Of a stretch of DNA of 22,965 nt, positions 3,558-3,601 are shown piece after piece (position 1 is the first letter of the stretch; every line of letters starts with the position of its first letter). The translations under genes were made by a program, and so were the position numbers. Below the pieces are notes generated by a model, which ran no database searches, was not told where the DNA came from, and saw nothing but the letters and a program-made list of their open reading frames with translations. The stretch is taken from the IMG/VR virus record IMGVR_UViG_3300045988_053025, one strand, 5' to 3'. Source of the DNA: a virus (Duplodnaviria; Heunggongvirae; Uroviricota; Caudoviricetes).

Positions 3558-3590
3558 TAAAACAAAGCCAGCTCATCGGCTGGCTGTTTG
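3558..3590. terminator. stem-loop between convergent genes, likely terminator for the minus-strand ORF
   Basis: 7-bp stem AGCCAGC/GCTGGCT (3566-3572 / 3579-3585) with a 6-nt loop. On the minus strand it is followed by TTGTTTT; on the plus strand only by GTTTG. A second hairpin TATCCTC-TGAT-GAGGATA sits at 3542-3559. Confidence 0.45.
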
Positions 3591-3601
3591 TGACATGTCA
3601 C
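3590..3601. repeat. 12-bp perfect palindrome GTGACATGTCAC, copy 2
   Basis: Read directly; lies between the terL stop (3515) and the stop of the minus-strand ORF (3606-3608). Confidence 0.9.

What the first reader, a model, noticed from the sequence alone, without database searches (positions are those of the whole stretch)
3590..3601. 12-bp perfect palindrome GTGACATGTCAC repeated three times at module junctions
The identical palindrome occurs at 1325-1336, 3590-3601 and 21760-21771, always in intergenic or stop-codon-overlapping positions at 3' gene ends. The first overlaps the stop of the RHH/zinc-ribbon gene just upstream of terS, the second lies between terL and the orphan 139-aa ORF, and the third lies between ant and the accessory cassette. 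Copies 1 and 2 share a 14-mer (TGTGACATGTCACG). By my rough estimate a given 12-mer is expected about 0.001 times in 23 kb, so three copies are not chance. The sites could bind a dimeric phage regulator (the RHH/zinc-ribbon protein is a candidate), act as RNA processing or termination elements, or be recombination sites marking accessory-gene insertion boundaries.
Basis: seen in the sequence. Interest (0 to 1): 0.6.

Follow-up and report, generated by a model that had tools for sequence, protein, structure and literature searches.

The report
Phage regulator's palindromic DNA binding sites
The three identical 12-base palindromes are real, conserved sites that travel through many temperate phages together with one small uncharacterised DNA-binding gene (its stop codon sits inside the site), so they are most likely that protein's binding sites marking the ends of phage transcription units.

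Summary
GTGACATGTCAC occurs exactly at 1325, 3590 and 21760, and in none of 100 shuffles. The window is an epsilon15/phiV10-like (Uetakevirus) E. coli prophage. Salmonella phage epsilon15 (about 80% DNA identity) carries the same 12-mer at the same three places.

The motif generalises to GTGAC-N2-GTCAC and is tied to one gene family, PHROG_536 (window 990-1328), which has a predicted ribbon-helix-helix fold plus four cysteines.
- Of 80 viral loci fetched by protein alone, 75 have the palindrome over the gene's TGA stop.
- Distant homologues (36-55% identity) in N15, phiKO2, P2-like prophages and Vibrio phages, and in about 75 Enterobacterales species, have the same half-sites at or near their stop.
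- Only the two central bases vary. Other spacings are at chance level (217 versus 0-5 in 2.6 Mb).

In the window each copy lies between a gene's 3' end and an intrinsic terminator, at a mosaic breakpoint.

The best reading is that these are cognate sites of the ribbon-helix-helix protein acting at operon boundaries. The binding itself is inferred from co-inheritance, and the effect on RNA polymerase is a guess.

The half-sites equal those of E. coli matS (13 bp), but no sequence homology to MatP was found. I found no literature on the motif.

The parts
1325..1336 (.). Palindrome copy 1 (GTGACATGTCAC). It contains the TGA stop of the PHROG_536 gene and lies 42 nt upstream of a + strand terminator.
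   Evidence: The same overlap is seen in 75 of 80 protein-fetched viral loci and in epsilon15.
3590..3601 (.). Palindrome copy 2. It lies 4 nt after the stop of the minus-strand cargo ORF and 4 nt before the minus-strand terminator hairpin, at the terL / cargo-slot junction.
   Evidence: It is conserved in phiV10 and epsilon15. The stop-to-palindrome gap is 4 nt in 49 of 54 loci, across at least 3 unrelated cargo families.
21760..21771 (.). Palindrome copy 3, directly abutting the + strand terminator after ant, at the junction with the converging accessory genes.
   Evidence: Of 120 instances of this terminator in IMG/VR, 100 carry the exact palindrome directly upstream, with about 8 unrelated kinds of left flank (22 distinct 25-nt flanks).
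990..1328 (+). Gene for the candidate binding protein (PHROG_536, about 112 aa). It has an N-terminal basic helix, a predicted ribbon-helix-helix and a C-terminal four-cysteine motif. The start may instead be the GTG at 981.
   Evidence: - PHROG hit at 1e-53; no Pfam or NCBIfam family.
- AF2 model with pLDDT 72.
- The family has 183 representatives at 50% identity.
1378..1395 (+). Intrinsic terminator at the end of the early-right transcription unit, downstream of copy 1.
   Evidence: The equivalent position is annotated as a terminator in epsilon15.
3566..3585 (-). Intrinsic terminator with its T-run on the minus strand. It ends the cargo ORF transcript, and its hairpin is also the phiV10-annotated terL terminator.
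   Evidence: The stem varies by compensatory changes among relatives while the palindrome stays fixed.
21772..21789 (+). Intrinsic terminator at the end of the late/ant unit, immediately after copy 3.
3606..4025 (-). Variable cargo ORF (139 aa, PHROG_4846) occupying the slot bounded by copy 2. Relative to phiV10 it is swapped precisely from start codon to stop.
   Evidence: Homology to phiV10 breaks at 3610 and resumes at 4025. Cargo families are compared.
6677..6688 (.). One-mismatch copy GTGACATGGCAC inside a coding gene. It is probably not a functional site, but the same variant is the second site of the P2-like clusters.
   Evidence: It is present in phiV10 and TL-2011b and absent in epsilon15.

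Best explanation
The three palindromes are instances of a 12-bp site, GTGAC-N2-GTCAC. I take this to be the cognate DNA site of the small ribbon-helix-helix plus four-cysteine protein encoded at 990-1328 (PHROG_536, the epsilon15 gp49 / N15 gp46 family).

What is shown:
- Gene and site are inherited together.
- The gene's own TGA stop is usually built into the site.
- The two 5-bp half-sites are invariant, while the 2-bp centre differs between protein subfamilies.

What is inferred:
- A symmetric dimer, or a pair of dimers, binds the half-sites. The family-wide conserved N-terminal basic helix probably reads GTGAC. The variable beta-strand probably reads the centre.
- In this prophage the protein is made as the last product of the early-right operon. 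It then occupies one site at the end of its own unit and two more at the ends of other units.
- Every copy lies between a stop codon and an intrinsic terminator, opposite repressor-operator-like sites that mark the starts of units.

My best guess, and the least certain step, is that the bound protein modulates RNA polymerase passage at these boundaries. It could act as an insulating roadblock or as a site-specific terminator modulator. This would keep the late operon and the oppositely oriented accessory cassettes from reading into each other.

The coincidence with mosaic breakpoints would then be a consequence. A short, invariant, functionally required sequence is where recombinants between relatives can join.
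For: Real and non-random:
- 3 exact copies against 0 in shuffles.

Orthologous conservation:
- epsilon15 has the exact 12-mer at all three equivalent places although its flanks are only 74-81% identical. phiV10 has two exact copies plus one one-mismatch copy.
- The terminator stems next to the palindrome change by compensatory substitutions while the palindrome does not.

Linkage to the gene, without selecting on the motif:
- 75 of 80 IMG/VR loci fetched by protein have it over the stop codon, with none in the 10 kb upstream.
- Of the 80 P2-like loci, 56 have GTGACGCGTCAC, GTGACGTGTCAC or GTGACATGTCAC over the stop, 4 have GTGACGCGTCAC 9 nt after the stop codon's first base, and 1 has GTGACATGTCAC 20 nt before it. 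In the 50-56% subfamily, 17 of 20 have GTGACATGTCAC or GTGACGTGTCAC 0.5-4.6 kb downstream.
- In 80 loci from about 75 Enterobacterales species, 30 overlap the stop, 17 lie within 30 nt after it, 26 lie elsewhere in the locus and 7 have none.
- N15 gp46 and phiKO2 gp45 stops lie in GTGACTGGTCAC, and Vibrio VPHZ6 has GTGACAGGTCAC 2 nt after the stop.

Spacing specificity (GTGAC-Nk-GTCAC for k = 0-7):
- 0, 1, 217, 0, 0, 3, 5, 0 in 2.63 Mb.
- 4, 0, 86, 0, 1, 0, 2, 0 in 0.93 Mb.

Subfamily-specific centre:
- All three N15 sites are the same 12-mer in either orientation.

Fold:
- The AF2 model shows helix / gap / helix / long helix.

Boundary position:
- Terminators lie 42, 4 and 0 nt downstream of the copies, in each terminator's own polarity.
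- TTACC-N5-GGTAA repressor-operator-like sites mark unit starts at 1415, 4623 and 22747.

Clusters:
- A full site plus degenerate sites spaced about 27-33 bp apart occur in P2-like and Pectobacterium prophages, as expected for cooperative protein binding.
Against: - No binding experiment exists. The protein-site link is purely co-inheritance.
- In several lineages the site is kilobases from the gene, or upstream of it inside a cII/YdaT-like gene. Seven of the 80 genome loci have none within 6 kb.
- A roadblock at a site that overlaps a stop codon would truncate the upstream mRNA, which argues against a simple roadblock.
- In many relatives no terminator follows site 1. N15 and the P2-like phages already have other late regulators, so the transcription-boundary function is not universal.
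- Individual copies are dispensable.
Confidence: 0.55

Rival explanations
1. Same binder, architectural function: a phage-encoded analogue of MatP/matS. The RHH protein bound at one to four 12-bp matS-like sites bridges or condenses phage DNA. Alternatively it positions the DNA, or keeps SMC complexes such as MukBEF off it. Under this reading the position next to terminators is only a matter of free non-coding space.
For: - The half-sites are identical to matS, GTGAC[AG]N[TC]GTCAC (consensus quoted in PMC3603311). The phage 12-mer is that consensus minus its central base.
- Precedent for RHH proteins acting at non-promoter sites is architectural, for example MatP and centromere-binding proteins (my own knowledge).
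- Vibrio phage K308 also carries one true 13-bp matS-consensus site over a stop codon.
Against: - No sequence homology to MatP: hhalign E 0.5, BLASTP E 13, and Smith-Waterman z below 1 for five of six family members (2.3, 13 of 500 shuffles, for the K308 homologue).
- There is no MatP four-helix bundle and no MatP Pfam domain.
- Many P2-like prophages have a single site, so there is nothing to bridge.
- The sites sit in transcribed DNA upstream of terminators rather than in quiet DNA.
Confidence: 0.15
2. Recombination anchor or 'boundary sequence'. The palindrome, with its terminator, is mainly a short conserved joint at which phages exchange accessory genes. Exchange would occur either by homologous recombination on microhomology or through a site-specific enzyme.
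For: - All three copies lie exactly at homology breakpoints.
- At site 2 at least 3 unrelated cargo families end exactly 4 nt from the palindrome.
- At site 3 about 8 unrelated kinds of left flank (22 distinct 25-nt flanks) abut it.
- The downstream partner of site 1 varies between terS types, LexA-controlled promoters and other genes.
- The ant 3' end is present inverted on either side of site 3 in different phages.
Against: - The nearest relatives of the gp66-like cargo gene in other phages have no such motif, so cargo does not carry it.
- No recombinase co-occurs with it.
- 12 bp is too short for efficient homologous exchange on its own.
- This reading does not explain the N2-specific spacing, the invariant half-sites with a free centre, or the linkage to one gene family's stop codon in P2-like, N15-like and Vibrio phages.
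- The CUS-3 region with its annotated boundary sequences bsq1 and bsq2 (L004) has no exact copy of the 12-mer.
Confidence: 0.1
3. RNA-level element in 3' untranslated regions. The transcribed palindrome, at or just after stop codons and before terminator hairpins, would control translation termination, coupling to the next gene, mRNA processing or 3'-end stability.
For: - The element is always transcribed with the upstream gene, and its TGA is used as the stop codon at site 1 in most lineages and at site 3 in some.
- In some relatives the next gene's ribosome-binding site follows within about 10 nt.
Against: - As RNA it forms only a 4-bp hairpin at -1.2 kcal/mol, no better than shuffles, and it does not compete with the terminator stems.
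- Perfect two-fold symmetry with a free centre, and function in either orientation (N15), are hallmarks of duplex-DNA recognition.
- Rfam has no family there.
- Sites also occur inside coding regions and upstream of genes.
Confidence: 0.07
4. Host-factor site. The 12-mer is bound by a host protein, either MatP with relaxed spacing or another Enterobacterales regulator, and the phage gene linkage is incidental.
For: The half-sites are identical to matS. The motif is found in hosts that have MatP, namely Enterobacterales and Vibrio.
Against: - The tight physical linkage to one phage gene family across lineages would be unexplained.
- The 13-bp matS form was absent from 500 E. coli and Salmonella prophages (PMC3603311). 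It is also essentially absent here: 0 N3 sites in 3.5 Mb of protein-fetched loci.
- The centre differs by protein subfamily, not by host.
Confidence: 0.05

Closest known systems
Ribbon-helix-helix regulators with palindromic or repeated operators (Arc, Mnt, CopG, omega, NikR, antitoxins)
   Same: - A small protein with a predicted beta-alpha-alpha core.
- A short symmetric site with 5-bp subsites 7 bp apart centre to centre, as for adjacent omega heptads (my own knowledge).
- The site lies next to the regulator's own gene.
- Clusters of sites at about 3 helical turns occur in some lineages.
   Different: - No sequence-profile match to any RHH family.
- There is an extra C-terminal four-cysteine domain.
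- The sites lie at 3' ends of genes and operons, even inside the gene's own stop codon, rather than over promoters.
E. coli MatP / matS (Ter macrodomain organiser)
   Same: - Identical half-sites, GTGAC...GTCAC.
- The binder is an RHH protein.
- MatP is the best structural neighbour of the model.
   Different: - matS is 13 bp (centre RNY), whereas the phage site is strictly 12 bp.
- No detectable sequence homology and no four-helix bundle.
- There are 1-4 sites per phage, against 23 in an 800-kb domain for matS (PMC3330122 abstract, listed).
Lambdoid 'boundary sequences' at module junctions (annotated for example in CUS-3 as bsq1 and bsq2)
   Same: Short conserved non-coding sequence found exactly where homology between related phages breaks.
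   Different: - The retrieved CUS-3 region containing both annotated boundary sequences has no exact copy of the 12-mer.
- The present element is a strict dyad with constrained spacing, linked to a specific gene family.
Mycobacteriophage stoperators (L5 gp71 sites; my own knowledge)
   Same: Multiple copies of one short protein-binding site placed in short intergenic gaps along the transcription units of a temperate phage, and thought to act on elongating RNA polymerase.
   Different: - Stoperators are asymmetric and orientation-dependent, number about 30, and are bound by the immunity repressor.
- Here the sites are symmetric and number 1-4. They differ from the repressor operators, which are of the ATTACC-N5-GGTAAT type.
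Lambda Q / qut late antitermination module
   Same: The last gene of the early-right operon is followed immediately by its putative DNA site and then a terminator, ahead of the late (terminase) genes. A weak promoter-like match uses GTGACA as its -35 element.
   Different: - No Q homology.
- Two further sites lie at the ends, not the starts, of units.
- N15 and P2-like carriers have their own late activators.
- In many relatives no terminator follows the site.

Membership tests
Ribbon-helix-helix (Arc/MetJ/CopG) DNA-binding superfamily | beta-strand / helix / helix core that dimerises | tested here: inconclusive
   - The AF2 monomer (pLDDT 72) has helices 30-43 and 52-75 preceded by an unstructured 19-29 segment where the strand would lie.
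- Foldseek found nothing.
Ribbon-helix-helix (Arc/MetJ/CopG) DNA-binding superfamily | Match to an RHH sequence profile | tested here: not met
   - No Pfam hit even at E 10 for 15 members.
- The only hint is NCBIfam YbfE ('LexA regulated protein') at E 0.049 for the Yersinia homologue.
Ribbon-helix-helix (Arc/MetJ/CopG) DNA-binding superfamily | Specific binding to a symmetric or repeated operator | not testable with these tools
   Only co-inheritance of gene and dyad site is shown.
MatP/matS | 13-bp site GTGACRNYGTCAC | tested here: not met
   The phage sites are 12 bp. N3 spacing occurs 0 times in 2.63 Mb and 0 times in 0.93 Mb of carrier loci. The half-sites are identical.
MatP/matS | MatP domains (PF06303 N-terminal bundle, PF17414 RHH) or detectable homology | tested here: not met
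MatP/matS | Bridging or SMC-unloading activity, ZapB interaction | not testable with these tools
   No computation available here addresses this.
Intrinsic (Rho-independent) terminator | G+C-rich hairpin followed by a U-run | tested here: not met
   The palindrome alone folds at -1.2 kcal/mol with no U-run. The adjacent hairpins do qualify, so the palindrome is a neighbour of terminators and not one itself.
Lambdoid module boundary sequences | Conserved short sequence located at homology breakpoints between related phages | tested here: met
   Breakpoints lie at 3610 and 4025, and a 61-bp island at 21757-21817. Flanks are diverse. This is a descriptive class and does not name a mechanism.
Integron-like gene cassettes (ORF plus 3' recombination site) | The site travels with the cargo gene | tested here: not met
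   gp66-like genes in phages LPST10 and pIS4-A have no GTGACNNGTCAC within 1.5 kb, even allowing one mismatch.
Immunity-repressor operators / stoperators | Same sequence as the prophage repressor's operators | tested here: not met
   epsilon15 operators are ATTACC-N5-GGTAAT. The window has TTACC-N5-GGTAA at 1415, 4623 and 22747.

The most novel reading that the evidence does not exclude
Temperate phages of Enterobacterales and Vibrionales carry their own orthogonal 'mini-MatP' system. It would consist of a compact RHH/zinc protein and 12-bp sites that are matS shortened by one base pair. The host MatP, and the counter-selection against matS in prophages, would therefore not touch these sites. 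The system would be used to organise, pair or shield replicating phage DNA, for example from SMC-type complexes, rather than to regulate transcription.
Probability: 0.12. Interest if true: 0.85.

Novelty: new variant of a known kind. Interest (0 to 1): 0.62.

Why it matters
If the inference holds, an uncharacterised protein family gains a defined DNA target that can be ordered as an oligonucleotide tomorrow. The family is currently annotated only as 'hypothetical' or generic 'transcriptional regulator'. It has about 180 clusters at 50% identity. The terS/terL region that carries the gene in this prophage matches 13% (717 of 5426) of complete E. coli genomes, and homologues occur in N15-like, P2-like and Vibrio phages.

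The case would also be a rare one of a regulator whose site is embedded in its own stop codon and placed at operon ends rather than promoters. That bears on how mosaic temperate phages insulate late genes from inserted accessory genes.

The identity of the half-sites with matS raises a directly testable question. Do phages run a MatP-like system that is orthogonal to the host's, at the same time as prophages avoid true matS sites?

In practical terms, the motif is a good marker for cargo slots in epsilon15-like prophages.

Tried and rejected
1. Literature. The exact 12-mer is in none of about 8 million full texts. The epsilon15 genome paper and the SPC32H paper are not held.
2. Repressor operator idea. 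epsilon15 operators are a different dyad.
3. CUS-3 'boundary sequence' annotation. This is an unrelated sequence with no copy of the motif.
4. cos/pac element.
   - In P2-like prophages the cos-like GGCGTGGCGGGGATAGCAT lies at least 500 bp away, and farther where cargo is inserted.
   - N15 sites are far from cos.
   - Three pac sites in one genome make no sense for headful packaging.
5. Integron-like cassette. Rejected.
6. MatP homology by sequence. This was tried four ways and none was significant. The MatP family search returned only near-identical E. coli proteins and was useless for building a profile.
7. Foldseek against the PDB, Pfam, NCBIfam and PDB sequence search for the protein gave nothing significant. 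A weak PARP-type zinc-finger alignment (E about 0.7) was disregarded.
8. Integrase arm sites of epsilon15 (GTGACGGTAT, four copies) share only GTGAC. I treat this as coincidence.
9. Many IMG/VR hits to the 14-mer are unrelated coding coincidences, for example the start of a Q-like gene, MRDMSQVLERW.
10. A distant-homologue alignment (A3) was too divergent for the locus finder.

Full report
**1. The observation**

GTGACATGTCAC occurs exactly three times, at 1325-1336, 3590-3601 and 21760-21771. None of 100 dinucleotide-preserving shuffles contains a copy. A one-mismatch copy at 6677 lies inside a coding gene.
- Copy 1 contains the TGA stop of ORF 981/990..1328.
- Copy 2 lies between terL and a minus-strand 139-aa ORF.
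- Copy 3 lies after ant.

**2. What the window is**

The window is an epsilon15/phiV10-like podovirus prophage (genus Uetakevirus) of E. coli. Its closest relatives are TL-2011b and EC.W1-9. Sequence matching the segment 900-4100 is found in 717 of 5426 complete E. coli genomes.

**3. Conservation at orthologous places**

- Salmonella phage epsilon15 is only 74-81% identical in the flanking DNA, yet it has the exact 12-mer at all three equivalent positions.
- phiV10 has it at sites 2 and 3. It has a one-mismatch version (GTGA|CATGTTAC) across the ends of its record.
- TL-2011b has sites 1 and 3 but has lost site 2.
- In IMG/VR contigs the terminator stems beside sites 2 and 3 differ by compensatory changes, while the palindrome is invariant.
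- No complete genome examined has extra exact copies elsewhere.

**4. Relation to terminators**

A consensus scan finds intrinsic terminators at + 1378-1395, - 3585-3566 and + 21772-21789. The site-2 terminator has its T-run on the minus strand. In all three cases the order along the terminator's own direction is therefore gene stop, then palindrome, then hairpin, then T-run. The gaps between palindrome and hairpin are 42, 4 and 0 nt.

Sites like the annotated repressor operators of epsilon15 (TTACC-N5-GGTAA) lie at the starts of units, at 1415, 4623 and 22747. The palindromes thus mark the ends of units.

As RNA the palindrome is only a -1.2 kcal/mol hairpin. It does not interfere with the terminator stems. 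Rfam finds nothing at the sites.

**5. Linkage to one gene family (the key result)**

ORF 990..1328 belongs to PHROG_536. It has no Pfam or NCBIfam family.

Loci fetched by the protein, not by the motif, gave these results:
- Viral contigs, close relatives: 75 of 80 have the exact palindrome over the stop codon. None has a copy in the 10 kb upstream, and about 50 have a second copy after terL.
- P2-like prophages: with an alignment of the P2-like subfamily, 56 of the 80 loci have GTGACGCGTCAC, GTGACGTGTCAC or GTGACATGTCAC over the stop. Four more have GTGACGCGTCAC 9 nt after the stop codon's first base, and one has GTGACATGTCAC 20 nt before it.
- In the 50-56%-identity subgroup of that set, 17 of 20 have GTGACATGTCAC or GTGACGTGTCAC 0.5-4.6 kb downstream. 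In 14 of these it lies in a conserved cluster with a degenerate second site about 33 bp away.
- One genome per species: in 80 loci from about 75 Enterobacterales species (51-86% identity), the site overlaps the stop in 30. It lies within 30 nt after the stop in 17 and elsewhere in the 12-kb locus in 26. It is absent in 7.

Distant homologues in annotated phages behave the same way:
- The stops of N15 gp46 and phiKO2 gp45 lie in GTGACTGGTCAC.
- The stop of Yersinia P2-like gp13 lies in GTGACGCGTCAC.
- Vibrio VPHZ6 has GTGACAGGTCAC 2 nt after the stop.
- Vibrio K308 has three N2 sites.

**6. Nature of the motif**

The half-sites GTGAC and GTCAC are invariant, and the two central bases vary (AT, CG, GT/AC, TG/CA, AG/CT).

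The spacing is strict. Counts of GTGAC-Nk-GTCAC for k = 0-7 are 0, 1, 217, 0, 0, 3, 5, 0 in 2.63 Mb of carrier loci. They are 4, 0, 86, 0, 1, 0, 2, 0 in 0.93 Mb. Chance expectation is roughly 1-2.5 per spacing.

The centre tends to be the same within a phage and a subfamily. All three N15 sites are the same 12-mer in either orientation. A 100-kb host sample has no exact copy and one N2 variant.

Invariant half-sites, a free centre, strict spacing and function in either orientation are the signature of a symmetric protein dimer on duplex DNA.

**7. The protein**

- The AF2 model (pLDDT 72) shows an N-terminal basic helix, an unstructured stretch where an RHH strand would be, two helices, and a poorly modelled four-cysteine tail.
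- Across the family, the N-terminal R..K..QR.R segment and the cysteines are conserved, while the putative strand varies. This fits half-site reading by the basic helix and centre reading by the strand. That is an inference.
- The family is small, with 183 representatives at 50% identity.

**8. Mosaic junctions**

- Against phiV10, homology breaks 9 nt after copy 2 and resumes at the start codon of the 139-aa ORF. Exactly one ORF is swapped.
- In 54 loci the cargo stop lies 4 nt from the palindrome in 49, although at least three unrelated cargo families occupy the slot.
- Of 120 instances of the site-3 terminator, 100 have the exact palindrome, 2 have one mismatch and 18 have an unrelated sequence. 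About 8 unrelated kinds of left flank are joined to it, among 22 distinct 25-nt flanks.
- The closest relatives of the gp66-like cargo gene in other phages have no such motif. The palindrome therefore belongs to the backbone slot and not to the cargo.

I read the junction association as a consequence of an invariant functional element, not as proof of a recombination site. That rival remains open.

**9. Comparison with matS**

The matS consensus is GTGAC[AG]N[TC]GTCAC, and it was found in none of 500 E. coli and Salmonella prophages (PMC3603311). The phage 12-mer is that consensus minus the central base.

MatP binds matS through an RHH domain (PMC12756933). However, profile-profile comparison, BLASTP and Smith-Waterman tests show no significant similarity to MatP. 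The resemblance is a lead about how the element may work, not evidence of membership.

**10. Mechanism and confidence**

- Shown: the motif is real, conserved and spacing-specific. It is co-inherited with PHROG_536, it lies at stop-codon/terminator junctions, and it lies at mosaic breakpoints.
- Inferred: the protein binds it as a dimer.
- Guessed: binding modulates RNA polymerase passage at unit boundaries, insulating late genes and converging accessory cassettes.

There are arguments against a plain roadblock. The stop-codon overlap would truncate upstream messages. Many relatives have no terminator after site 1. Some P2-like phages have only one site.

I put about 0.65 on the protein-site pairing and about 0.3 on the boundary-control function. 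The MatP-like architectural role is the main alternative.

**11. Novelty**

No paper in the library contains the motif, and the protein family has no curated annotation. The kind, a small RHH regulator with a dyad site, is well known. The placement, the embedding in the stop codon, the breadth across phage types and the matS-like half-sites are new.

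Noticed in passing
window 4224-4300 (- strand): A tRNA-Arg (anticodon TCT) gene lies on the minus strand. It overlaps the 3' end of the + strand ORF 4043..4294, which phiV10 and TL-2011b annotate as a hypothetical protein, so that ORF may be spurious.
   Followed up: partly
window 20717-20784 (- strand): There is an Rfam match to sar antisense RNA between the Arc-like ORF (20525..20713) and ant (20786..21721). 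This is a P22 immI-type arc/sar/ant module inserted in an epsilon15-like backbone.
   Followed up: no
window 4045-4060 and 4145-4180 (- strand): Two minus-strand intrinsic terminators lie between the tRNA and the start codon (4025) of the cargo ORF, leaving no room for a promoter. The cargo gene would have to be expressed by read-through.
   Followed up: no
window 1415-1429, 1433-1447, 4623-4637, 22747-22761: TTACC-N5-GGTAA dyads match the annotated epsilon15 repressor operators (4 found against 0.46 expected). They sit upstream of terS, upstream of the portal operon and near the Bro-N gene, which suggests direct repressor control of several units.
   Followed up: partly
window 21491-21745 (+) versus 22747-22965; phiV10 L001 19550-19768: The 3' part of ant is about 89-95% identical, in inverted orientation, to the 3' part of the Bro-N antirepressor gene of phiV10 and TL-2011b. 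The two copies flank the accessory cassette as an inverted repeat.
   Followed up: no
L207 (Vibrio phage K308) 19491-19503: GTGACACCGTCAC is a perfect 13-bp matS-consensus site overlapping the stop codon of gene 27. It occurs in a phage that also has three 12-bp sites and a PHROG_536 homologue.
   Followed up: no
L264-L283 (P2-like prophages), for example L265 10275-10380: A conserved cluster reads cGTGACAtGGCAC, about 21 nt, GTGACATGTCAC, about 25 nt, TGTGAC half-site. It lies between the early operon's cargo region and the portal gene, and its right flank is variable.
   Followed up: partly
L029 1499-1510 (also L020, L036, L055, L118): In low-GC lambdoid prophages the exact palindrome lies inside a cII/YdaT-like gene (reading GRDMSH). 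It is conserved while neighbouring synonymous positions vary, and it is about 2.7 kb upstream of the PHROG_536 gene, which there follows a DnaB-like helicase gene.
   Followed up: partly
L003 (epsilon15) 26651, 26873, 27108, 27198: The four annotated integrase arm sites are GTGACGGTAT, sharing GTGAC with the palindrome half-site. This is probably coincidence.
   Followed up: no
L023, L042, L052, L071, L109 (high-GC IMG/VR contigs): Unrelated high-GC phages show dense arrays of GTGAC(A)/GTCAC-containing repeats around their copy of the 12-mer. They may represent a different repeat or operator system.
   Followed up: no
L006, L007, L024, L035, L122 (downstream of the PHROG_536 stop): In some epsilon15-like prophages the palindrome is followed 6 nt later by TTGACT and a perfect LexA box (TACTGT-N8-ACAGTA). 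The site thus abuts the -35 of an SOS-controlled promoter.
   Followed up: no
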